A program made the translations under genes and the position numbers. DNA of 61,038 nt from assembly GCA_934101865.1 (NCBI GenBank), contig CAKOSA010000004.1, positions 1-61,038 on the forward strand. The letters run 5' to 3'. Positions 1,241-61,038 of this stretch are shown piece by piece. Below the pieces are notes generated by a model that saw only the letters and a program-made list of their open reading frames with translations, was not told where the DNA came from and searched no databases. The stretch comes from an uncultured Bacilli bacterium. GTDB lineage: Bacteria; Bacillota_I; Bacilli_A; RF39; UBA660. Position 1 is the stretch's first letter, and the number at the start of each line of letters is the position of its first letter.

Positions 1241-1346
1241 ATTTATATCTATTATAAATGTTAAAGGGGTTCTGTCAGAAAGATATTTAGATTTTGACAG
1301 TCCTTTTTTGACATTTATTTTATTTTGGAGGTGATAATATTTAATT

Positions 1347-2267
1347 ATGAGAAAGTTAATTTTATTTATTTTGCTCATTTTATTTTTACCACTTATTATT
1401 GTTTATTGTTCTCCTTCGGAGGATACGATTGAACTTAAACTTAATTATGGAAGTGATAAGTTAATTAGAGTTAAAAGAGTAGATAGTGGAAATATTGATA
1501 ATATTGGCTTAGAAGAATATATTGTTGGTGTTTTAGCTGGGGAAATGCCTATTTATTTTGAATTAGAAGCACTTAAAGCACAGGCTGTTGCGGCTCGAAG
1601 TTATGCTTTGAAAAGAATGGAATATAATAAAAATAATGAATATGATGTTGTGGATTCTATTATGAATCAGGTATATTTAGATAGAGATTATTTAAAGGAG
1701 GCGTGGGGAAGTAGTTATACGAGTAATATTAATAAGTTAATTAGGGCAGTTAATGAGACTAGTGGAGAATACTTGGATTATGATGGTGGTATTGCTGATG
1801 CTTTATTTTTCTCTACTAGTAATGGATATACTGAAAACTCTGATGTTGTGTTTTCGTTTGATGTACCGTATTTAAAGAGTGTTGATAGTAAATGGGATGA
1901 AAGTGTTTCTAGTGTGTTTCATAGCAGTATTACAATTTCTGTAAGTGATTTTTTACAGAAAATGAAAATTAGTAATAGTGATAAGGTGGTTTTTAGTGAT
2001 ATTGTTAAGAGTGATACAGGGAGAGTAATTAGTATAAATATTAATGGTGTAGATTTTAAGGGGATGGATGTTTATAATAATTTGGGGTTAAAATCACTTG
2101 ACTTTTCTTTGGAACAAGTTGGTAGTAATGTTGTTATTAATACAAGTGGTTATGGTCATGGTGTTGGTATGAGTCAGTATGGAGCATTGGGAATGGCTAA
2201 GAATGGATATAATTATAGGGATATACTATTTCATTATTATACGGGAGTAACAATAAAAAAAATATAA
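1347..2267 (+). CDS. spoIID: Stage II sporulation protein D (lytic transglycosylase)
   Basis: Signal/anchor helix plus motifs LKAQAVAARSYAL, ALFFSTSNGYTEN and GHGVGMSQYGA typical of SpoIID. Synteny with spoIIID and mbl. Confidence 0.85.
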   Translation: MRKLILFILLILFLPLIIVYCSPSEDTIELKLNYGSDKLIRVKRVDSGNIDNIGLEEYIVGVLAGEMPIYFELEALKAQAVAARSYALKRMEYNKNNEYDVVDSIMNQVYLDRDYLKEAWGSSYTSNINKLIRAVNETSGEYLDYDGGIADALFFSTSNGYTENSDVVFSFDVPYLKSVDSKWDESVSSVFHSSITISVSDFLQKMKISNSDKVVFSDIVKSDTGRVISININGVDFKGMDVYNNLGLKSLDFSLEQVGSNVVINTSGYGHGVGMSQYGALGMAKNGYNYRDILFHYYTGVTIKKI

Positions 2268-3357: not shown

Positions 3358-4356
3358 ATGTTTAATATGTTTAATAAAGATATTGGAATAGATTTAGGGA
3401 CCGCTAATGTACTTATATATATAAAAGGACAAGGTATTGTACTTAATGAACCTAGTGTTGTGGCTATTGATTCAGAGACTAAGAAACCGCTTGCTGTTGG
3501 TACGGAGGCTCACGAGATGCTTGGTAGAACTCCAGGAAAAGTAAAAGCAATTAAGCCTATGAAGGATGGGGTTATTGCTGATTATGATACAACGGAGTTA
3601 ATGCTTAACTATTTTATTAAAAAGGTTAATGGTAAAAGTTTCTTTTGTAGACCGAGGATTCTTATATGTTGCCCTTCTAATATTACGCAAGTAGAGAAGA
3701 ATGCTATTAAAGAAGCAGCGGAAAGAACGGGAGCTAAGAAGGTCTTTTTGGAAGAGGAGCCTAAGGTGGCTGCAATTGGGGCTGGAATGGACATTTCCAA
3801 ACCTAGTGGTAATATGGTTATTGATATTGGTGGTGGTACTACTGATATAGCTATTTTGTCATTAGGGGGAATAGTTAATAGTACTTCGATTAGAATAGCT
3901 GGTAATGCTTTTGATAATGATATTGTTAAGTATATAAAAGATAAGTATAAACTTTTAGTTGGGGAGAGAACGGCGGAAGAGATTAAAATTAGGATAGGAA
4001 CGGTTTTTCCTGGTAATAGAAATGACAAGATGGAAGTTAGAGGTAGAGATTTAGTTACGGGGCTTCCTCATACTATAACGCTTACTAGTGATGAAGTAGA
4101 GGAAGGGTTGAGAGAGAGTATTTATACAATAATTCACGCTATTAAGGGAATACTTGAACAAACTCCACCTGAACTTGCAGCAGATATTATTGATAAGGGT
4201 ATTGTTATTACTGGTGGAGGTTCTCTTGTTGATGGATTTAATTTACTTCTTGCTCAGGAGTTAAAGGTTCCTGTATTTGTTGCGGAAAGTCCACTTACTT
4301 GTGTTGCTGAGGGAACAGGAGTGCTTTTGGATAATATATATATGATAGAGAGGTAA
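3358..4356 (+). CDS. mbl: MreB-family actin-like rod-shape protein (Mbl-like by synteny)
   Basis: Motifs DIGIDLGTANVLIY, MVIDIGGGTTDIAILSLGG and GIVITGGGSLV are classic MreB phosphate and adenosine motifs. Lies immediately downstream of spoIIID, as in Bacillus. Confidence 0.9.
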   Translation: MFNMFNKDIGIDLGTANVLIYIKGQGIVLNEPSVVAIDSETKKPLAVGTEAHEMLGRTPGKVKAIKPMKDGVIADYDTTELMLNYFIKKVNGKSFFCRPRILICCPSNITQVEKNAIKEAAERTGAKKVFLEEEPKVAAIGAGMDISKPSGNMVIDIGGGTTDIAILSLGGIVNSTSIRIAGNAFDNDIVKYIKDKYKLLVGERTAEEIKIRIGTVFPGNRNDKMEVRGRDLVTGLPHTITLTSDEVEEGLRESIYTIIHAIKGILEQTPPELAADIIDKGIVITGGGSLVDGFNLLLAQELKVPVFVAESPLTCVAEGTGVLLDNIYMIER

Positions 4357-4491: not shown

Positions 4492-4920
4492 TTATTCATT
4501 GATAAAGCCATTACTTTTTAATTTAGAAATTAATTTATCAGTACTTACATTACCTTCTATGCGGTTAACAGCAGTCTTTTCTTTACCATCGTTTATAAAC
4601 AAAGTTGTTGGTGTTCCATTATAAGCATATTCTGTTTTAAATTTCTTTTGATCATCTGCGGTAAGTTTATCCACTTCTAGATAGTAAGTTTTAATCTTGT
4701 ATTTGTTTACAACTTTTTTTACTTTTGGTTTATATGCATCACAATTTGAACAAGTTGTTTGTGATATTATAAAGATAAAAGTTTCTTTATTATCTAGTTT
4801 CTTTTGTAAATCAGTATATGTAATTGGTTGCATATAGTTTTTGTTAGTAATAGTAAGTATAATTGGTACTATTATTATTAGTAGTATAATACCTATTAAA
4901 ATCATATATTTTTTGTTCAT
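4492..4920 (-). CDS. Membrane-anchored thioredoxin-like protein (CSNC active site), Bta/TlpA-like
   Basis: N-terminal TM helix, IISQTTCSNCDAYKP CxxC motif and a GTPTTLFI cis-Pro loop. Close paralog of 15614-16093. Confidence 0.65.
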   Translation of the reverse strand: MNKKYMILIGIILLIIIVPIILTITNKNYMQPITYTDLQKKLDNKETFIFIISQTTCSNCDAYKPKVKKVVNKYKIKTYYLEVDKLTADDQKKFKTEYAYNGTPTTLFINDGKEKTAVNRIEGNVSTDKLISKLKSNGFINE

Positions 4921-5187
4921 TTAATTCACCTTCTATTATAAGTATACTACAAAATATTTAAATTTGTAAAGTTTAGATTTCAGTTTTTCAAAAAATGTTT
5001 CTAAATATATGCAAATTTTATATAATAATAGCAATTTTGATGTTTATTAATTGAGGTTCACATCAAAGATTTAGGTTTTTTCTTTTAGGTATTACCCAAG
5101 TTTATATACATAAAAGTATACATTTTTACGTTTATTTAATTTTTGAATAAAAAAATTAATAAAAGTCTTTCCTTTTTTTTCAAAAAA

Positions 5188-26118: not shown

Positions 26119-26733
26119 TTATATAATTGATTTTCTATTATAGTCTGTTATATCACTGCCTAATTTTTCGTAGAGTTCTTTTACGGTTAATTTCTTTGTT
26201 TGGATTTGTTCTAGTTCATCGTTAGTTATTCCGACAAATTCTATAAACTCTACTTTTCCGTTTGGAGTATCTATTTGGCCAAATTGCTTGTCGGGAATGG
26301 TTATTAGGGAATTTATTAGTGATTTTTTACTACAATCTATTCCGTCTGTTTTTCCTGTGTACATATATTCATAAGGTAGGAATATTTCTCCTTGTTTGAA
26401 TGTTGCACGGGCTAGGGTTTGTAGTAAAACACATATATTTTCTAGTTCTTCTGTTTCGTCTTCGTAGTTGTCTTTTTTTAATTTTAGGGTAAATTCCATT
26501 CCATAACCGCTTAATTCTTTATTTTTTGATACTTTTTCATATAGTTCTGATAATCCATAGGTTACAAAGTGCCAATAATCTCCTCCATCATAGATGCTTA
26601 TTCCGTCTAATGGATCATTTCCGCCAAGGGCCCAACTTATTATGGTTCCGTAGTGTTTGGGTTTTAATTGGTTTGGATATATTTCGTGGCATCTTTTTTC
26701 TATGGCATCCCAACCTGATGTGTTCTCTTTCAT
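26119..26733 (-). CDS. SUFU-like (suppressor-of-fused domain) protein
   Basis: GWDAIE...HYGT...GGNDPLDGISIY....YWHFVTYGLSELY pattern is typical of bacterial SUFU-like domain proteins. Confidence 0.55.
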   Translation of the reverse strand: MKENTSGWDAIEKRCHEIYPNQLKPKHYGTIISWALGGNDPLDGISIYDGGDYWHFVTYGLSELYEKVSKNKELSGYGMEFTLKLKKDNYEDETEELENICVLLQTLARATFKQGEIFLPYEYMYTGKTDGIDCSKKSLINSLITIPDKQFGQIDTPNGKVEFIEFVGITNDELEQIQTKKLTVKELYEKLGSDITDYNRKSII

Positions 26734-26749: not shown

Positions 26750-26839
26750 TGTACCTAATTTGTACCTAAACGTATTTTTTATTTTGAAAACCCCCGTAAA
26801 ATGGGGCTTTATTTTCTCGATGGTGGAGCCGAGGGGAAT
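26750..26839. repeat. attL: 90-bp direct repeat containing a displaced 19-nt tmRNA 3' end plus terminator
   Basis: Identical base-for-base to 60891-60980. Contains TGGTGGAGCCGAGGGGAAT (reverse complement of ...CCTCGGCTCCACCA). Confidence 0.9.
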
Positions 26840-26942: not shown

Positions 26943-26963
26943 TGTACCTAATTTGTACCTAAA
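26943..26963. repeat. Third copy of the TGTACCTAATTTGTACCTAAA motif (candidate integrase arm-type site)
   Basis: The same 21-mer forms the outer end of both att repeats (26750-26770 and 60891-60911). Each contains two TGTACCTAA units 11 nt apart. This copy abuts the integrase stop codon. Confidence 0.6.
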
Positions 26964-26968
26964 ATTTA

Positions 26969-28066
26969 TCATTTTTCTATTAGTTTTATTATGTTGTTTA
27001 ATTTTGATTTATATAAGTGTGCGTACCTATTTAGTGTCATACTCACATCTGCGTGACCTAGATACTTTGCAACTAGTACTGGATCCGCATTTTTTGATAT
27101 TAATAAGCTAGCACAACTATGTCTAAAATCGTGTATTCTAATCTGTTTTACCCCTGCTTTTTTACAATATGCGTTTTTATGTTTTTGGATTGTTGTTTCA
27201 GGAGTAGGGTATATTCCTCCAAAAACGAACCAATCATTATTAAACCCGTCTAGGGTATTATATGTATTATATAATGTAGCAAGTTCGTTTTTGACTTTTT
27301 CTGTTATTGGTATAATCCTGTAACTTGATTTTGTTTTTGGAGGAAATAGAGTATATTTTTCTCCTTTTAACTTAGTTGTTAATGTTTTGTTTATATAAAT
27401 TGTTTTATTATCAAGGTCTATATCATTCCAAGTAAGTGCCATTAATTCTCCTTGACGTAAACCACAGTAAAATAATACTGTAAACAATGTTCTCCATAAT
27501 TGTTCATCAATAACCTCTAAAAATTTGTTGAATTCTTCCAATGTAAAGAATAGCATTTCTTTTTTCTTTTCGTTTTTGTCAACAAACTTTCCCTCAATTG
27601 CAATTACATTTGTAGTTACATTATAGTGCGTTTCGGCATATCTAACTATTTCACACAGTAATTTATATATTTTATTTTTGTAAGAACAACATAGGTCCTT
27701 ATTATTCATTTCTGTTTTCCATTTTTTAAATTGTTTTAGAGTTAATTTATTTATCTGTATTTTTCCAAGAGTATTTTCAATATGTTTGTAATAATTATTT
27801 ATCTTTTTTAATGTAGTTATCCTTAATTCTTCTTCTTTTTTTAGATATAGTTCTTTATACGCATAATTAAAGGTAATCTTTTGATTACAGACATTTTCTC
27901 CAATTGACAGTAGGAAACGTGCCTCTTCCTTAGTTGCTTCTTCCTTTGTTAAATACTTCTTACTTTTCTTTTGTTTTTTGTTTCCTTCTAGGTCACTATA
28001 ACAACATTTAAAGTACCATATCTTATTTGTTTTGGTTTTTTCTGCTTTTGATTTGTAAACTGGCAT
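26969..28066 (-). CDS. int: Tyrosine recombinase / phage integrase
   Basis: C-terminal catalytic motifs GLRQGEL, RIHDFRHSCASLL and LGHADVSMTLNRYAHL. The ATG at 28066 has better RBS spacing than the GTG at 28075. Confidence 0.9.
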   Translation of the reverse strand: MPVYKSKAEKTKTNKIWYFKCCYSDLEGNKKQKKSKKYLTKEEATKEEARFLLSIGENVCNQKITFNYAYKELYLKKEEELRITTLKKINNYYKHIENTLGKIQINKLTLKQFKKWKTEMNNKDLCCSYKNKIYKLLCEIVRYAETHYNVTTNVIAIEGKFVDKNEKKKEMLFFTLEEFNKFLEVIDEQLWRTLFTVLFYCGLRQGELMALTWNDIDLDNKTIYINKTLTTKLKGEKYTLFPPKTKSSYRIIPITEKVKNELATLYNTYNTLDGFNNDWFVFGGIYPTPETTIQKHKNAYCKKAGVKQIRIHDFRHSCASLLISKNADPVLVAKYLGHADVSMTLNRYAHLYKSKLNNIIKLIEK

Positions 28067-28238
28067 AAAAATCACATTTCCTTTCCATTATTATTGCGTA
28101 ATGATGATTTCTATGCTATAATTATATTGCATAGAAAAATTCATCGTGCTTGATTTATTTTTTTGTGTATTTGGTTCAACCTATTGCAGTAGGTTGGGCT
28201 TTTTATGTATTTTTTTTTATTTTTTTCATATACTATAA

Positions 28239-28267
28239 TTGACAAATGATATATTTTATGATATTAT
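28239..28267 (+). promoter_or_regulatory. Near-consensus sigma-A promoter of the candidate sRNA
   Basis: TTGACA (28239-28244), 17-nt spacer, TATTAT (28262-28267). Confidence 0.55.
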
Positions 28268-28273
28268 TTAGTC

Positions 28274-28373
28274 AGTGAGTGAGTAGTTCGCTGAATTGCT
28301 GAAGGGTATATTAATATATACCAGCAGGCTTGCCCTGTGGGTTCCTTCAGGCAGGGGAAAGCTCACTTTTTTT
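28274..28373 (+). ncRNA. Candidate structured small RNA convergent with, and overlapping the 3' end of, the DUF3800-like gene
   Basis: About 100 nt with G+C clearly above all flanking DNA. Helices AGTGAG/CTCACT (28274-79 / 28362-67) and CTGAAGG/CCTTCAG (28299-305 / 28344-50), plus two internal hairpins. Ends in T7 (28367-28373). Has an upstream promoter. Confidence 0.5.
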
Positions 28374-29100
28374 GTTTTGTAATAAAATTTATTAAGTTGT
28401 GCAATTCTTTTGCTTTACTCTTGTCAGGAACAAGTTTTAATCCATAACTCAAATAATTGTTATATCTACGATATATTTTATTTTTTTTGATAAATACATA
28501 ATTAAAATGAGTATTATCGTTATATTTTAATGCTTGAAATAATGCACTACAACAACAATCTGCTAATTGTAATAATCTTTTTCTTTCGTTTTGCATAATT
28601 TTAATTGACTTTATTCTGTTTACTTCTATATTGAATTTTTTATGATTGTTACTATTTAAGTAATCGCTTAGTTTTTTTTTCGATAAATTTCCTCTCGAAC
28701 TAATATTTATGTTTGCAATTCCGTTCTTTTCATTCATATACCAGCATATTCTTTCATAAAGATATCCACTGAAAAAGTTATATATGTTATTTGAAGGTAT
28801 AAACTTTATGCTTTTTGTATCTACTATTACATTGATAATTATTATATCTGAACTACGCACTATTTTCATTATCGTTTCTTTATTTGAAAAACCTTTTAAT
28901 AATTTCCAATGTAATTGACTTTTTTTATTCATTCCTAAGTTTTCTTTTATAATATCAACTTTTTTTGCTATCTCCAAGTCATTTTCTTTATCTACTATAA
29001 GAGCAGTTAATATAAAGTATTTTGAACCTTTATTTATTCCTTCATCCCCAGCTTCATCAATGTAAACATTGTATTCTTTGTTTTTTAATGCAGTATTCAT
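28363..29100 (-). CDS. DUF3800-like protein
   Basis: ATG at 29100 follows GGAAGGG (the track start at 29136 is TTG with no RBS). The N-terminal NVYIDEAGDEG and C-terminal LLQLADCCCSALFQAL resemble the conserved DESG and ADxxa motifs I associate with DUF3800. Confidence 0.55.
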   Translation of the reverse strand: MNTALKNKEYNVYIDEAGDEGINKGSKYFILTALIVDKENDLEIAKKVDIIKENLGMNKKSQLHWKLLKGFSNKETIMKIVRSSDIIIINVIVDTKSIKFIPSNNIYNFFSGYLYERICWYMNEKNGIANINISSRGNLSKKKLSDYLNSNNHKKFNIEVNRIKSIKIMQNERKRLLQLADCCCSALFQALKYNDNTHFNYVFIKKNKIYRRYNNYLSYGLKLVPDKSKAKELHNLINFITKQKK

Positions 29101-29119
29101 TCTTTTTTCCCTTCCTTTT

Positions 29120-29320
29120 TTATTTGAATAAGTCAAAAATACTGAAAGTAGTTTTTTTGTATACTTTGTTGTATAGTGATTTTTTTGGATTAGTAATTAA
29201 TCCCACTCCCTTTTTTCCATAAAAAGGATTAATACTTTTTTTGATACTTCTTTTTAGTTTTCCCGTAGTCCTCGCTTTTATGGATTTCATTGGGCTAGGT
29301 GTTCTCATTCCTATTTTCAT
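29120..29320 (-). CDS. 66-aa highly basic protein (first gene of the DUF3800 operon)
   Basis: ATG at 29320 lies 5 nt after GGAGG. MKIGMRTPSPMKSIKARTTGKLKRSIKKSINPFYGKKGVGLITNPKKSLYNKVYKKTTF... is very Lys/Arg-rich. Stop lies 19 nt before the DUF3800 ATG. Confidence 0.55.
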   Translation of the reverse strand: MKIGMRTPSPMKSIKARTTGKLKRSIKKSINPFYGKKGVGLITNPKKSLYNKVYKKTTFSIFDLFK

Positions 29321-29362
29321 CTTAGCCTCCATACACAATAGTGCTTGTCTGCACTTAATTCA

Positions 29363-29390
29363 ATTATAAAGCATATTTTCTCATTGTCAA
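29363..29390 (-). promoter_or_regulatory. Consensus sigma-A promoter for the basic-protein/DUF3800 operon
   Basis: On the minus strand: TTGACA (29390-29385), 16-nt spacer, TATAAT (29368-29363). The palindrome GTGCTTGTCTGCAC lies just downstream (29341-29354). Confidence 0.6.
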
Positions 29391-29874: not shown

Positions 29875-30297
29875 TTAGTTTTCTATTTTATTAAGATTTT
29901 CTGTGATATTTTTTAATAATCCTTTGTCATTAAGAGCAAGTATTAATTGTACTAGTTCATCTAGAAGTTCTGCCTCCATATGGGCTATAATTTTGTATTC
30001 TATTAACTTTTTATTAAAGTAATACAATTGGTCTGCTTTTATGTAACCTTCTTTTGAATTAATTTTATCACCTGAAATATATTCTTCCTTAATGGGTAAG
30101 TTTTCTTCATATTTTAATTTTTTATTTTTATGTTCTTCATTATGAAAACTACACATCATATTTGAAACGAAGTCATATTTTAGCCCCTCAACATAATCCT
30201 CTTCATCATTAATAACTACAAATGAGTGTTTAGGTACGGAAATACCTTCTTCATTTTTAAATTCTTTTACTACTATAATATCTCCTAATTTACACAT
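29875..30297 (-). CDS. Possible PemK/MazF-fold toxin-like protein
   Basis: N-terminal GDIIVVKEF..EEG..VPKHSFVVIND resembles the GDI..V.F....G.E..K.RP.VV start of PemK/MazF-type proteins. The rest is divergent. Confidence 0.3.
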   Translation of the reverse strand: MCKLGDIIVVKEFKNEEGISVPKHSFVVINDEEDYVEGLKYDFVSNMMCSFHNEEHKNKKLKYEENLPIKEEYISGDKINSKEGYIKADQLYYFNKKLIEYKIIAHMEAELLDELVQLILALNDKGLLKNITENLNKIEN

Positions 30298-30371: not shown

Positions 30372-30725
30372 TTATTTGTTATCTTTCAAGAATTCCTTAT
30401 TAGCGTTAACGAACTGGAACAGCTTGTCCAGTTCTTTTTCCGTTAAGTCCTCATCTTTGCTCATAAAGCCGTTTTTAATTAGGAGTGATTTAAGTGCTTC
30501 AATTTCTTTTAGTTCTTCATTATTTTTGTATGAAACATTTCCCAAAAGATAGTCGGTTGTAACATTAAAGTAGTTAGCAATTTTTGTGGTTGTTTTTAAA
30601 TCTGGCTCTGTTTCGCCACGGCACCATCTACTGACAGCCTGAGTAGTATATCCAATGTGCTTGGCTAAGTCAGTTTGATAAATTCTATTTGCTTTTAGTA
30701 GTTCATTTAATCTATCTTTAAACAT
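30372..30725 (-). CDS. XRE-family HTH repressor (cI-like)
   Basis: ATG at 30725 lies 7 nt after AAAGGAG. HTH segment LKANRIYQTDLAKHIGYTTQAVSRWCRGETEP. Divergent from a Cro-like gene. Confidence 0.8.
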   Translation of the reverse strand: MFKDRLNELLKANRIYQTDLAKHIGYTTQAVSRWCRGETEPDLKTTTKIANYFNVTTDYLLGNVSYKNNEELKEIEALKSLLIKNGFMSKDEDLTEKELDKLFQFVNANKEFLKDNK

Positions 30726-30818
30726 AATCAAACTCCTTTCTTATATTAACATTATACAACATTTAGTTTTGAAAATAAATAAAAAATGAAAAAAATAAAC
30801 AAAAATGCAAAAAAACTG

Positions 30819-38723: not shown

Positions 38724-39039
38724 AAGATTTGGGAATGACGAAAACTTAAACAGAATATATGAATTGCTAGATAGTGCAAAATTTAGAAATTATATTTACG
38801 ATTTAGACGGAAAAGGAACTTACTGTGAATATATTGATGAGTACGAAGTTGCTATCGATGATAGAGATGATAGGATTAAAGAACTAGAACAACAAATTAA
38901 AAAGCAAAAAGAAATCATTGATAAGGCAATAAGTTATATAAGCAAATATTCAACAGATGAAAACGGAGATATTAGTATAAATTTATTTTCTTATAATTGT
39001 GTTGAATTATTAGATATATTAGGTAAGACATCAAAATGA
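38716..39039 (+). CDS. Hypothetical phage protein
   Basis: ATG at 38716 follows GGGAGAAAG. Coiled-coil centre. Confidence 0.45.
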   Translation: MNKRFGNDENLNRIYELLDSAKFRNYIYDLDGKGTYCEYIDEYEVAIDDRDDRIKELEQQIKKQKEIIDKAISYISKYSTDENGDISINLFSYNCVELLDILGKTSK

Positions 39040-39099
39040 AAGATATAGACAATGTAGTATTTACTGACGAAATACTAGAAAAATACAAGGGTGATAGTA

Positions 39100-60890: not shown

Positions 60891-60980
60891 TGTACCTAAT
60901 TTGTACCTAAACGTATTTTTTATTTTGAAAACCCCCGTAAAATGGGGCTTTATTTTCTCGATGGTGGAGCCGAGGGGAAT
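60891..60980. repeat. attR: 90-bp direct repeat forming the 3' end plus terminator of the intact tmRNA gene
   Basis: Identical to 26750-26839. Identity stops exactly at 60980 inside the tmRNA T-arm. Confidence 0.9.
60927..60952 (-). terminator. tmRNA terminator
   Basis: On the minus strand, a CCCC-ATTTTAC-GGGG hairpin followed by a T-rich tract, about 10 nt after the CCA end. Confidence 0.45.
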
Positions 60981-61038
60981 CGAACCCCTGTCCAAAAATA
61001 CCGATAATTAAATATCTACAAGCTTAGTTAATTATTTT
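60962..61038 (-). ncRNA. ssrA: tmRNA (ssrA), 3' portion; 5' part outside window
   Basis: The reverse complement ends GGACAGGGGTTCGATTCCCCTCGGCTCCACCA (T-arm, acceptor and CCA). U at position 70 allows the G3-U70 alanine identity pair. Upstream sequence is AT-rich with no matching 5' acceptor within 78 nt, so it is not a tRNA. Confidence 0.6.

What the first reader, a model, noticed from the sequence alone, without database searches (positions are those of the whole stretch)
28239..29390. Prophage accessory module: basic 66-aa protein plus DUF3800-like protein, opposed by a GC-rich structured sRNA overlapping the operon's 3' end
Seen, part 1: in the usual moron/defence slot between int and the repressor, a consensus minus-strand promoter (TTGACA-16-TATAAT, 29390-29363) drives two genes. 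The first is a Lys/Arg-rich 66-aa protein (29320-29120). The second starts 19 nt later and is a 245-aa protein (29100-28363) with YIDEAGDEG and LLQLADCCC motifs that I recognise as DUF3800-like (function unknown). Seen, part 2: on the opposite strand, TTGACA-17-TATTAT (28239-28267) precedes a stretch of about 100 nt whose G+C is strikingly higher than anything nearby. It folds into a closing helix (AGUGAG/CUCACU), a second helix (CUGAAGG/CCUUCAG) enclosing two hairpins, and ends in U7. Its last roughly 10 nt are antisense to the DUF3800 stop region. Established: convergent 3'-overlapping antisense RNAs control prophage type I toxins in B. subtilis (txpA/RatA, bsrG/SR4). From memory, comparative RNA surveys named a set of 'DUF3800' RNA motifs for their association with DUF3800 genes, with no known function. 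Inference: this is a three-part protein/protein/RNA module expressed in the lysogen. It may be a toxin-antitoxin-like, abortive-infection or RNA-dependent defence system that has not been characterised.
Basis: partly seen in the sequence, partly recalled or inferred. Interest (0 to 1): 0.8.

Follow-up and report, generated by a model that had tools for sequence, protein, structure and literature searches.

The report
DUF3800 nuclease with partner RNA
A prophage carries a known but functionally unexplained pair, an RNase H2-like "DUF3800" protein gene and a small structured RNA (Rfam DUF3800-VII) transcribed towards it; the two always travel together as a compact unit, probably a defence or addiction module, while the neighbouring 66-aa basic protein is not a fixed part of it.

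Summary
Window 28278-28372 (+) is a full-length Rfam DUF3800-VII RNA (68.8 bits against a cut-off of 36.2). ORF 29100-28363 (-) is a Pfam DUF3800 protein (E 1.2e-15) with an RNase H2/HII-like predicted fold. Both lie in a 34-kb prophage integrated at tmRNA, between int and the repressor.

The conserved unit has two parts, not three. In 93 of 93 related loci with downstream sequence (protein identity 27-100%, G+C 21-66%), the RNA follows the DUF3800 gene. It is convergent in 91 loci and co-directional in 2. It has its own TTGACA promoter, and its 3' end lies within about 10 nt of the stop codon. Covariation supports the fold (26 of 28 pairs). No third gene is conserved.

The 66-aa protein belongs to a very large independent family and is absent from those loci. 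A sister prophage with 96-98% identical flanks replaces exactly the DUF3800 ORF plus the RNA body with a different DUF3800 and a different RNA.

Function is uncharacterised in the literature. My best guess (about 0.4) is that the RNA acts in trans on the nuclease as a gatekeeper or antitoxin in a defence or addiction cassette. Antisense control like type I toxin-antitoxin systems is unlikely to be the main mechanism. This is a new member of a known, unexplained kind.

The parts
28278..28372 (+). DUF3800-VII small RNA (Rfam RF02967). Transcription probably starts around 28274-28278. The RNA ends in the P1 stem plus a U7 intrinsic terminator.
   Evidence: Rfam match of 68.8 bits against a gathering score of 36.2, full model. 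My own covariance model gives 69.3 bits, and there is a single copy in the window. Fold -35.1 kcal/mol, z -2.9. Covariation in the family: 26 of 28 pairs change on both sides.
28239..28267 (+). Promoter of the RNA (TTGACA-17-TG-n-TATTAT).
   Evidence: 11 of 12 consensus matches with a TG extension. A TTGACA -35 box at the same distance is present in nearly all related loci, from 21% to 66% G+C. In sister prophage L122 this promoter stays with the flank and drives a different RNA.
28363..29100 (-). DUF3800 protein gene (245 aa), a predicted RNase H2/HII-like nuclease. Candidate catalytic residues are D15, E16, E116 and D181.
   Evidence: Pfam PF12686, E 1.2e-15. AlphaFold2 model with pLDDT 82 and pTM 0.84. 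Best Foldseek matches in the PDB are human RNase H2A 3puf, Tk RNase HII 2dfh and Bst RNase HIII. D15, E16, E116 and D181 are at least 90% conserved in 50 diverse representatives.
28273..29111 (-). The exchangeable cassette: ribosome-binding site, DUF3800 ORF and the transcribed body of the RNA.
   Evidence: Sister prophage L122 is 96.4% identical to window 29776-29112 and 98.4% identical to window 28272-27113. Between these flanks it carries a different DUF3800 (293 aa, 25% identity) and a different convergent RNA.
29120..29320 (-). 66-aa Lys/Arg-rich protein gene. It is first in the operon in this prophage. It is not a conserved partner of DUF3800 plus RNA.
   Evidence: It matches the N-terminal 66 residues of phrog_10934, 29766, 4721 and 3374. 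The family has 2030 protein clusters, mostly free-standing at 66 aa. It is 65-85% identical to proteins of Streptococcus, Enterococcus, Lactococcus and Paenibacillus phages. It is absent from the other DUF3800-VII loci.
29363..29390 (-). Promoter-like site of the 66-aa/DUF3800 operon (TTGACA-16-TATAAT).
   Evidence: 12 of 12 consensus matches. The same sequence is present in L122.
29340..29355 (-). Short hairpin in the 5' leader of the operon (AGTGCAGACAAGCACT). Its role is unknown.
   Evidence: Reported by the terminator-like scan, but no T run follows it. It is conserved in L122.
26969..28075 (-). Context: the prophage tyrosine integrase, downstream of the cassette.
   Evidence: Pfam Phage_integrase, E 4.4e-26, plus an Arm-DNA-bind_4 domain.
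26750..26839 (.). Context: attL, a 90-nt direct repeat of 60891-60980 (attR, which overlaps the tmRNA 3' end). The two repeats bound a prophage of about 34 kb.
   Evidence: Exact repeat. tmRNA 3' end at 60962-61038. Terminase, portal and tape-measure genes lie inside.

Best explanation
The finding is an autonomous two-component cassette. It encodes a DUF3800 protein, which is a predicted RNase H2/HII-like nuclease with an intact D-E-E-D set of residues. It also encodes that protein's cognate structured small RNA, DUF3800-VII. The RNA is made from its own strong promoter on the opposite strand and ends at the gene's stop codon.

Shown here:
- The two genes are inherited and exchanged as one unit across very distant bacteria and phages.
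- No third gene is conserved with them.
- The RNA fold is under selection.
- The cassette repeatedly sits in prophage int-repressor slots and at scattered chromosomal sites.

Inferred:
- The RNA works in trans by binding the DUF3800 protein, rather than by antisense pairing.
- The most likely role is that of a gatekeeper. The abundant RNA, largely double-stranded and so not cleavable by an RNase H-type enzyme, would hold the nuclease inactive.
- When the RNA supply fails or the RNA is damaged, for example by phage-induced shut-off of transcription, by phage nucleases or by loss of the element, the nuclease would be freed. It would then attack RNA-DNA hybrids or ribonucleotide-containing DNA, stopping the cell or the invader.
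- This resembles a type III toxin-antitoxin or abortive-infection system. It also resembles retron type VII, in which a DUF3800 protein is paired with the RT and its ncRNA.
- In this prophage the cassette is expressed from the lysogenic operon led by the 66-aa gene and would serve superinfection defence or prophage maintenance.
For: Obligate pairing:
- The RNA is found next to the gene in 12 of 12 genome loci and in 2 other prophages.
- In my own covariance-model search it is found in 91 of 95 sources. L055 and L056 are recovered with permissive Rfam filters. The only two remaining failures are loci where the contig ends at the gene.
- Proteins in these loci are only 27-33% identical to the window's, yet the RNA still scores 50-90 bits.

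Independent transcription:
- A TTGACA -35 box lies upstream of the RNA and a U-tail downstream of it in nearly all loci, across 21-66% G+C.
- U-G at one pair in 53 of 73 sequences fixes the strand.

Selected structure:
- 85.5% of cells are paired against 65% in shuffles.
- 26 of 28 pairs show changes on both sides.
- Sliding the partners by 1-3 columns gives about 40% paired.
- Unpaired bases are conserved: the CA(G) after hairpin 1 and GUGGG.UCC.

Action in trans:
- L063 and L109 have intact ORFs with the RNA co-directional, under its own promoter.
- Weinberg et al. 2017 report that DUF3800-I RNAs lie on either side of the associated gene and in either orientation.

Cognate pair:
- Sister prophage L122 swaps the ORF and the RNA body together.
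- The second RNA type is itself conserved, with compensatory changes, in 4 loci.

Autonomy:
- No neighbouring gene family is present in more than 9 of 94 loci.

Nuclease:
- The fold search and the conserved residues support an RNase H2/HII-like enzyme. This agrees with PMC7736814 and PMC10910872.

Conflict-system context:
- The cassette lies between int and the repressor in the window and in L019, L021 and L122. Integrase genes also flank it in L055, L056, L059 and L060, and repressor-like genes in L056 and L058-L060.
- It is present in Ralstonia phage RsoM1USA.
- Other DUF3800 proteins accompany type VII retrons and Cas12a2, Cas12a3 and Cas13 systems.
- L012 and L061 have decayed DUF3800 genes but intact RNAs. 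No intact gene lacks the RNA.
Against: - No experiment on any DUF3800 protein or DUF3800 RNA was found. Toxicity, RNA binding and phage defence are all inferred.
- PADLOC models give no hit to the protein.
- In a Legionella Tn-seq study a strain-specific DUF3800 gene scored as essential alongside antitoxins. This fits a protective protein better than a toxin, although that protein is a distant relative.
- Many copies sit between housekeeping genes, with no other sign of a defence island.
- The ratio of 2 decayed genes to 0 lost RNAs is not significant, because the gene is an eight-fold larger mutational target.
- The near-universal convergent layout leaves room for an added antisense or transcription-collision component.
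Confidence: 0.4

Rival explanations
1. The RNA is a positive cofactor. It would act as a scaffold, activator, guide or substrate that the DUF3800 enzyme needs in order to act. The pair would then be a ribonucleoprotein effector, not a toxin-antitoxin pair.
For: - The obligate pairing, the co-swapping of protein and RNA and the strong conservation of unpaired bases fit this equally well.
- The RNA has a strong promoter.
- The Legionella DUF3800 gene behaves as needed rather than toxic.
- DUF3800 proteins accompany RNA-guided Cas12 and Cas13 systems.
Against: - There is no hypervariable unpaired segment that could serve as a guide. Variation is confined to covarying stems, loops and the length of hairpin 2.
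- RNase H-type enzymes do not cleave RNA-RNA duplexes (established knowledge), so the RNA is an odd substrate.
- Weinberg et al. found no self-cleavage for DUF3800-I.
Confidence: 0.25
2. Antisense control like type I toxin-antitoxin systems. The convergent RNA would pair with a 3' extension of the DUF3800 mRNA, or its transcription would collide with that of the gene. Either effect would lower DUF3800 expression, as RatA does for txpA and SR4 does for bsrG.
For: - The layout is convergent in 91 of 93 loci, with the RNA end within about 10 nt of the stop codon.
- No T run follows the structure on the mRNA strand. The mRNA could therefore read through and become fully complementary to the RNA.
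- The RNA promoter is near-consensus.
Against: - L063 and L109 keep a high-scoring RNA in the same orientation as the gene.
- Overlap with the ORF is only 2-10 nt.
- The secondary structure covaries across phyla and unpaired bases are conserved. Pure antisense function does not require this.
- The product is a 245-aa enzyme, not a small membrane peptide.
Confidence: 0.1
3. The 66-aa basic protein would be a required functional partner of DUF3800 and the RNA, for example an RNA-binding adaptor or an antitoxin.
For: - The two genes share an operon with a 19-nt spacer.
- In sister elements the gene after the 66-aa gene is another DUF3800 type (L122) or a PemK/MazF-like protein (L123).
- In some phages the 66-aa module is fused to variable C-terminal domains such as HIRAN. 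This suggests a generic partner of variable effectors.
Against: - The protein is absent from all other DUF3800-VII loci examined.
- It is reduced to a 17-codon remnant upstream of an intact DUF3800 plus RNA in L019.
- It occurs alone or with cadherin-like proteins at chromosomal sites.
- The structure model has low confidence (pLDDT 69, pTM 0.33).
Confidence: 0.1
4. The pair is a selfish mobile element. An RNase H-fold recombinase or nuclease would use the RNA for its own movement or homing.
For: - The cassette is compact (about 0.9-1.0 kb) and occurs in many unrelated contexts.
- A sister prophage shows a precise replacement of the cassette.
Against: - There are no terminal inverted or direct repeats beyond chance in 21 of 22 loci tested.
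- There is one copy per locus and one in the window.
- The fold is type 2 RNase H, not a DDE transposase.
- The swap in L122 has homologous flanks, as expected for ordinary recombination.
Confidence: 0.05

Closest known systems
DUF3800-VII RNA motif (Rfam RF02967; Weinberg et al. 2017, PMC5737381), found next to DUF3800 (PF12686) genes
   Same: The window RNA matches the whole model well above the gathering score. It lies next to a DUF3800 gene and ends in an intrinsic terminator. This is what the locus is.
   Different: Nothing essential differs. The published description gives no function and no fixed gene arrangement. This copy lies in a prophage lysogeny module behind a 66-aa gene.
Type III toxin-antitoxin and abortive-infection systems (ToxIN, CptIN, TenpIN)
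   Same: A small RNA and a nuclease are encoded as a compact, mobile two-gene unit. The proposed logic is the same: an abundant RNA neutralises a protein nuclease.
   Different: The RNA is a single structured unit and not a tandem repeat array. It lies downstream of the gene and convergent with it, not upstream on the same strand. The protein has an RNase H2-like fold, not a ToxN/AbiQ-type fold. Inhibition is not shown.
Prophage type I toxin-antitoxin systems of B. subtilis with 3'-overlapping antisense RNAs (txpA/RatA, bsrG/SR4)
   Same: The location is a prophage. The RNA is convergent with the gene and its 3' end overlaps the gene's 3' end.
   Different: The protein is a 245-aa enzyme rather than a short hydrophobic peptide. 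ORF overlap is 2-10 nt. Co-directional variants exist. The RNA structure is conserved across phyla.
Retron type VII (RT, ncRNA and a DUF3800 protein or fused domain; Mestre et al. 2020, PMC7736814)
   Same: A DUF3800-family RNase H2-like protein is paired with a structured non-coding nucleic acid in a defence-type module. The same DE...D motifs are present, with E in place of the second D.
   Different: There is no reverse transcriptase in the window near the cassette or in related loci. PADLOC models give no hit. The RNA is not an msr/msd.
RNase HII/H2 and RNase HIII (type 2 RNase H)
   Same: These are the best structural matches. The N-terminal DE(A/S)G motif is the one I recognise from RNase HII (my own knowledge, not tested here). 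The carboxylates are conserved.
   Different: TM-scores are only 0.41-0.48 and sequence identity about 12%. G-D-E-G replaces the G-R-G motif that I recall as the 2'-OH sensor of RNase HII (my own knowledge). There is no sequence-level PDB match. The substrate is unknown.
CRISPR-associated DUF3800 proteins (TPR-DUF3800 with Cas12a2 and Cas12a3; Csx32 with Cas13)
   Same: The protein belongs to the same Pfam family, linked to systems that act on RNA.
   Different: Here there is no TPR domain, no cas genes and no CRISPR array. Those proteins' roles are also unknown.

Membership tests
Rfam RF02967 DUF3800-VII RNA | Covariance-model score at or above the curated gathering score, over the full model | tested here: met
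   68.8 bits against 36.2, model positions 1-90 of 90, E 3.7e-12.
Rfam RF02967 DUF3800-VII RNA | Lies next to a gene encoding a DUF3800 domain | tested here: met
   The RNA 3' end overlaps the stop region of the DUF3800 ORF by 10 nt. The same holds in 93 of 93 related loci with downstream sequence.
Rfam RF02967 DUF3800-VII RNA | Consensus helices supported by compensatory changes | tested here: met
   On 73 distinct sequences, 26 of 28 pairs change on both sides. 85.5% of cells are paired against 65% in shuffles and about 40% when partners are slid. Helices 2-4 are about 95% paired. The alignment was fitted to the model, which leans towards the structure. RNAalifold on a plain MAFFT alignment also found 10 of 11 predicted pairs compensated.
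Pfam PF12686 DUF3800 | HMM score above the gathering cut-off | tested here: met
   58.9 bits against 21, E 1.2e-15, profile positions 1-148 of 149.
Pfam PF12686 DUF3800 | N-terminal DE motif and C-terminal QxxD motif | tested here: met
   YIDEAGDEG contains D15 and E16. LLQLADCCC contains Q178 and D181. D15, E16 and D181 are at least 90% conserved in 50 diverse representatives.
Type III toxin-antitoxin (ToxIN-like) | The antitoxin RNA is an array of tandem repeats | tested here: not met
   There is no tandem repeat within 28274-28372. Only low-score AT-rich repeats occur, in the promoter region.
Type III toxin-antitoxin (ToxIN-like) | The RNA gene lies upstream of the toxin gene on the same strand, separated by a terminator | tested here: not met
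   The RNA is downstream of the gene and convergent with it.
Type III toxin-antitoxin (ToxIN-like) | The RNA binds and inhibits the protein toxin | not testable with these tools
   This needs co-expression toxicity assays and binding assays.
Type I toxin-antitoxin (txpA/RatA, bsrG/SR4 type) | The toxin is a small hydrophobic peptide | tested here: not met
   The product is a 245-aa alpha/beta enzyme-like protein.
Type I toxin-antitoxin (txpA/RatA, bsrG/SR4 type) | Extended antisense pairing between the RNA and the toxin mRNA | tested here: inconclusive
   Only 2-10 nt overlap the ORF. Pairing with a read-through 3' UTR is possible, because no terminator is seen on the mRNA strand. Two relatives have the RNA co-directional.
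Retron type VII | A reverse transcriptase gene and an msr/msd ncRNA next to the DUF3800 protein | tested here: not met
   The neighbours are the integrase, the 66-, 67- and 140-aa ORFs and HTH repressors. No recurrent RT family appears in 94 loci. PADLOC gives no hit.
Type 2 RNase H (RNase HII/H2/HIII) | RNase H2-like fold with four active-site carboxylates | tested here: inconclusive
   The top Foldseek hits are 3puf, 2dfh, 2d0a and 3asm, at E 1.6e-4 to 1.5e-3 but TM-scores of only 0.41-0.48. D15, E16, E116 and D181 are conserved. Their clustering in space and any enzymatic activity were not tested.

The most novel reading that the evidence does not exclude
DUF3800 plus its RNA is a previously unrecognised and very widespread class of two-component RNA-protein conflict system. 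A structured RNA would act as a pseudo-substrate that gates an RNase H2-like nuclease, in effect a retron without reverse transcriptase or a new kind of type III toxin-antitoxin system. Many non-homologous RNA folds (the 11 named DUF3800 motifs, plus the second type seen here in L122) would each have co-evolved with their own DUF3800 clade. Prophages would exchange these cassettes at a fixed slot to vary superinfection immunity.
Probability: 0.35. Interest if true: 0.8.

Novelty: new member of a known kind. Interest (0 to 1): 0.5.

Why it matters
The DUF3800 RNAs have been an open puzzle since 2017. At least 11 unrelated RNA folds are tied to one protein family, and their discoverers wrote that no specific hypothesis for their function was obvious to them. 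DUF3800 proteins also turn up as unexplained accessories of retrons and of Cas12 and Cas13 systems.

This locus and its relatives sharpen the problem into testable form:
- The unit is exactly one gene plus one RNA.
- The RNA has its own promoter and a fixed tail-to-tail junction with the gene.
- Nature has already done a swap experiment, in which the protein and the RNA were exchanged together between nearly identical prophages.
- A cultured phage (Ralstonia phage RsoM1USA) carries the same pair, with the RNA unannotated.

If the RNA proves to gate an RNase H-like nuclease, that would define a new RNA-protein defence or addiction mechanism. It would also suggest what DUF3800 does in retron and CRISPR loci. 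If not, the locus is simply one more copy of a catalogued motif.

Tried and rejected
Protein annotation:
- PADLOC, NCBIfam and PHROGs gave no hit for the DUF3800 protein.
- A sequence search of the PDB found nothing.

Searches in phage and viral collections:
- The viral-contig scan with the window protein found no relative.
- The only deposited phage with a protein-level match is Ralstonia phage RsoM1USA.
- At the DNA level, only the 66-aa gene matches deposited phages.

Literature:
- The supplementary text of Weinberg 2017 is not held.
- Searches for functional work on DUF3800, PF12686, skipping-rope or retron type VII effectors found no experiment. The one PF12686 hit in an ICE paper appears to concern a different domain, that of a coupling protein.

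The 66-aa protein:
- Its AlphaFold2 model was of low confidence (pLDDT 69, pTM 0.33), so no fold search was run.
- A profile search of the PDB gave nothing.

Ideas considered and rejected:
- Transposon-like ends. There are no flanking repeats beyond chance in 21 of 22 loci.
- A bidirectional terminator. No A run precedes the RNA 5' end, so no U run follows the structure on the mRNA strand.
- A conserved anti-Shine-Dalgarno role for the CCUUC in helix 2. That helix covaries freely in relatives.
- A conserved GGAUCC palindrome as a dimerisation site. Its central bases vary (UU, AA, GU, CU).

Not reproduced:
- The 'ctRNA_pT181' annotation at the same relative position in phage phiARI0995b was not recovered at Rfam gathering score.
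Full report
**1. What is in the window**

The region lies inside a prophage of about 34 kb.
- A 90-nt direct repeat (26750-26839 and 60891-60980) bounds it. The right copy overlaps the 3' end of a tmRNA gene.
- Inside are a tyrosine integrase (26969-28075, minus), an HTH repressor (30372-30731, minus), a divergent Cro-like gene, and terminase, portal and tape-measure genes.
- Related contigs are from uncultured, AT-rich gut Bacilli.

Between int and the repressor, the minus strand carries:
- a 12/12 consensus promoter (29390..29363);
- a 66-aa Lys/Arg-rich ORF (29320-29120) with a GGAGG ribosome-binding site;
- 19 nt later, a 245-aa ORF (29100-28363) that matches Pfam DUF3800 (E 1.2e-15).

On the plus strand, an 11/12 promoter with a TG extension (28239..28267) precedes a full-length match to Rfam RF02967, the DUF3800-VII RNA (28278-28372; 68.8 bits against a gathering score of 36.2).
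- The RNA ends in U7, and its last 10 nt overlap the DUF3800 stop region.
- The plus strand folds about 10 kcal/mol better than the minus strand.

**2. What is known**

- Weinberg et al. 2017 defined DUF3800-I to -XI as unrelated RNA folds found near DUF3800 genes. Several are followed by terminators. The authors wrote that no specific hypothesis for their function was obvious to them. For DUF3800-I the associated gene can lie on either side and on either strand.
- DUF3800 is described as an RNase H(2)-like fold with DE and QxxD motifs.
- It is an associated protein or fused domain in type VII retrons.
- It is an accessory of Cas12a2, Cas12a3 and some Cas13 systems.
- No paper in the library reports a biochemical or genetic test.
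- A Legionella Tn-seq study lists a strain-specific DUF3800 gene as apparently essential, next to antitoxins.
- DefenseFinder flags a solo DUF3800 gene in a temperate Streptococcus suis phage.

**3. The protein**

- An AlphaFold2 model (pLDDT 82, pTM 0.84) is closest to human RNase H2A, Thermococcus RNase HII and Bacillus RNase HIII. Foldseek E-values are 1.6e-4 to 1.5e-3 and TM-scores 0.41-0.48.
- No DUF3800 structure is in the PDB by sequence search.
- In 50 diverse representatives from an exhaustive HMMER search (437 representatives at E up to 0.001), the following are invariant or nearly so: D15, E16, G18, D19, G21, H64, E116, R117, R136, D181, Y219, G220 and K222.
- The window protein keeps all of them, so it looks like an active enzyme of the D-E-E-D type noted for retron VII proteins.

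**4. The conserved unit is gene plus RNA**

Close relatives:
- Twelve genome loci with proteins 66-76% identical all carry the RNA on the opposite strand at the end of the gene.
- So do two other prophages (L019, L021).

Distant relatives:
- Eighty metagenome loci reach down to 27% protein identity. They come from sediments, soils and guts, with G+C from 21% to 66%.
- Rfam found the RNA in 30 of 40 loci scanned.
- A covariance model built here found it in 91 of 95 sources, once per locus.
- L055 and L056 were recovered with permissive Rfam filters.
- In the last two, L054 and L085, the contig ends at the gene.
- So 93 of 93 loci with downstream sequence have the RNA.

Arrangement:
- In 91 loci the RNA is convergent with the gene. 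Its 3' end falls between 10 nt inside and 5 nt beyond the stop codon in nearly all of them.
- A TTGACA -35 box lies upstream of the RNA in nearly all.
- In L063 and L109 the RNA is co-directional with the gene and just downstream of it. It has its own TTTACA-17-TATAAT promoter, and the ORFs are intact.

Autonomy:
- Clustering all flanking ORFs from 94 loci shows no third conserved gene. The commonest neighbour family, a DNA methylase, is in 9 loci, integrases in 6 and repressors in 5.
- No flanking inverted or direct repeats exceed chance in 21 of 22 loci.

**5. The RNA structure is under selection**

On 73 distinct sequences aligned to the model:
- 85.5% of cells form standard pairs, against 65% in shuffles and 35-50% when partners are slid by 1-3 columns;
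- 26 of 28 pairs show changes on both sides;
- helices 2, 3 and 4 are about 95% paired.

A plain MAFFT alignment with RNAalifold, which is not fitted to the model, independently gave 10 of 11 predicted pairs with compensatory changes.

A U-G pair in 53 of 73 sequences would be a C-A mismatch on the other strand. Together with the promoters and the U-tails, this fixes the strand.

Conserved unpaired bases are the CA(G) after hairpin 1 and GUGGG.UCC between hairpin 2 and helix 2. This pattern is typical of a protein-binding or tertiary-contact RNA. Antisense function does not require it.

**6. A natural swap experiment**

L122 is a sister prophage.
- It is 96.4% identical to window 29776-29112, which covers the promoter, the 66-aa gene and 8 nt beyond its stop.
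- It is 98.4% identical to window 28272-27113, which runs from the RNA start site through the RNA promoter into int.
- The segment between these flanks corresponds exactly to the DUF3800 ribosome-binding site, the ORF and the transcribed RNA. In L122 it is replaced by a different DUF3800 member (293 aa, 25% identity, Pfam 32 bits).
- It also carries a different convergent three-hairpin RNA, driven by the same promoter (fold -27 kcal/mol, z -4.2).
- That second RNA has no Rfam match at E up to 0.1.
- It is conserved, with compensatory changes in hairpin 2 and in the terminator, in three further loci whose proteins are 61-75% identical to L122's.

Protein and RNA are therefore exchanged as a cognate pair.

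**7. The 66-aa protein**

- It matches the first 66 positions of four PHROG families of different lengths.
- It is 65-85% identical to proteins next to int in Streptococcus, Enterococcus, Lactococcus and Paenibacillus phages.
- The family has more than 2000 clusters, mostly exactly 66 aa and free-standing.

What follows it varies:
- a different DUF3800 (L122);
- a PemK/MazF-like protein (L123);
- a cadherin-like protein (L024-L033);
- a recombinase (L034);
- nothing related (L038);
- a fused C-terminal region such as HIRAN (phiARI0995b).

The protein is absent from all other DUF3800-VII loci. In L019 only its first 17 codons remain, directly upstream of an intact DUF3800 plus RNA. Its structure model is low-confidence and helical.

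It is therefore not part of the conserved module. It leads a slot in which variable, often nuclease- or toxin-like, cargo is exchanged. A looser functional link with whatever follows it is not excluded.

**8. Mechanism**

Shown:
- The pair is obligate and co-inherited.
- The RNA is independently promoted and structurally constrained.
- The protein has an RNase H2-like fold and keeps its conserved acidic residues.
- The cassette is autonomous and recurs in prophage lysogeny modules and in a cultured phage.

Inferred:
- The RNA acts in trans on the protein. The two co-directional loci, the conserved unpaired bases and the literature on DUF3800-I all argue against obligatory antisense action.

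My preferred reading (about 0.4) is a gatekeeper RNA.
- The RNA is abundant and mostly helical, and RNase H-type enzymes do not cleave RNA-RNA duplexes. It would occupy or restrain the nuclease.
- Loss or damage of the RNA would release the nuclease.
- This resembles type III toxin-antitoxin logic. It also resembles type VII retrons, in which a DUF3800 protein sits beside the RT and its ncRNA.
- Supporting hints are the two decayed genes with intact RNAs (L012, L061) against no intact gene without an RNA, and the prophage and defence-type neighbourhoods. The first hint is not statistically strong.

The main rival (about 0.25) is that the RNA is a required cofactor or scaffold of a ribonucleoprotein enzyme. 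The Legionella essentiality result fits this better.

An antisense or transcription-collision contribution (about 0.1 as the main mechanism) remains possible. No terminator is visible on the mRNA strand, so the mRNA may run through the RNA gene.

**9. Verdict**

- The features are real and correctly identified.
- The locus is a new member of a catalogued RNA-protein association whose function is unknown, so it is not categorically new.
- The three-part and type I readings are not supported.
- The added value lies in four things: the strict architecture, the cassette swap, the second RNA class, and a cultured phage carrying the pair. That phage is Ralstonia phage RsoM1USA, where the RNA lies 9 nt after gene 58 and scores 56 bits. 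Together they make an old open question directly testable.

Noticed in passing
window 29120-29320 (-); L013-L015, L024-L041, L122, L123: The 66-aa basic protein belongs to a very large family of unknown function in Firmicutes prophages and chromosomes, with about 2030 clusters at 65-98% identity. It is either free-standing or forms the N-terminal module of longer phage proteins (phrog_3374, 4721, 29766, 10934). The gene or domain after it varies: two DUF3800 types, PemK-like, cadherin-like and HIRAN. This resembles a conserved leader or adaptor for exchangeable cargo.
   Followed up: partly
L122:3590-3672 (-); L125 about 1320-1400 (-); the 170 nt downstream of the DUF3800 genes in L126 and L129: A second DUF3800-associated small RNA class with no Rfam 15 match at E up to 0.1. 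Its consensus is UUAGUyAUGGAAGC-loop-GCUUCGGGG, a covarying hairpin, CGGUUAA, and a covarying terminator that overlaps the last codons of a 281-296 aa DUF3800 clade. It is convergent with the gene and has its own TTGACA promoter.
   Followed up: partly
L124:2268-2352 (-), which is Ralstonia phage RsoM1USA MG747435, about 38971-39055: A cultured, fully sequenced phage carries a DUF3800 gene (RsoM1USA_58). An unannotated convergent DUF3800-VII RNA lies 9 nt after its stop codon (56 bits with my model). This could serve as an experimental system.
   Followed up: partly
L123:1040-1185 (+): Right after the PemK/MazF-like gene that occupies the same slot, there is a TTGACT-17-TAGAAT promoter-like site, a structured stretch and a terminator-like hairpin with a T run. 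This may be another protein plus small-RNA pair.
   Followed up: no
window 26750-26839 and 60891-60980; also 26943-26963: The prophage att sites are a 90-nt exact direct repeat that includes the tmRNA 3' end. A 21-nt partial third copy lies just beside the int stop.
   Followed up: partly
window 28173-28200 (+): A 12-bp terminator-like hairpin with a T run on the plus strand lies between int and the RNA promoter. It is also present in L122. It could shield the RNA promoter from plus-strand read-through that is antisense to int.
   Followed up: no
window 29875-30297 (-): A 140-aa ORF between the repressor and the 66-aa operon matches phrog_21589 (E 2.5e-33, unknown function). It also matches a MazF-like growth-inhibitor PHROG weakly (E 0.005).
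   Followed up: no
L015:3406-3508 (-) in phage phiARI0995b; L058:2382-2472 (-): In a pneumococcal phage, the depositors annotated a convergent 'ctRNA_pT181' ncRNA that overlaps the 3' end of the gene fusing the 66-aa module to HIRAN. It was not recovered at Rfam gathering score. A sub-threshold ctRNA_pT181 hit (38 bits against 56) also lies beside the DUF3800-VII RNA in L058.
   Followed up: partly
L005, flanks of the cassette (about 3740-3970 and 4840-5080): An 18-nt direct repeat (GCACCAGTGATGAATCTG) flanks the DUF3800/RNA cassette in this one locus. It is the only one of 22 loci with a flanking repeat longer than any seen in shuffled controls.
   Followed up: no
L012:2356-2911 and L061:1501-2217: These DUF3800 genes are decayed: one is truncated at the 5' end and the other has an internal deletion. 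Each still has a full-scoring RNA and RNA promoter.
   Followed up: partly
window 26119-26733 (-): A SUFU-like protein (Pfam PF05076, E 8.6e-31) lies just outside attL in the host chromosome.
   Followed up: no
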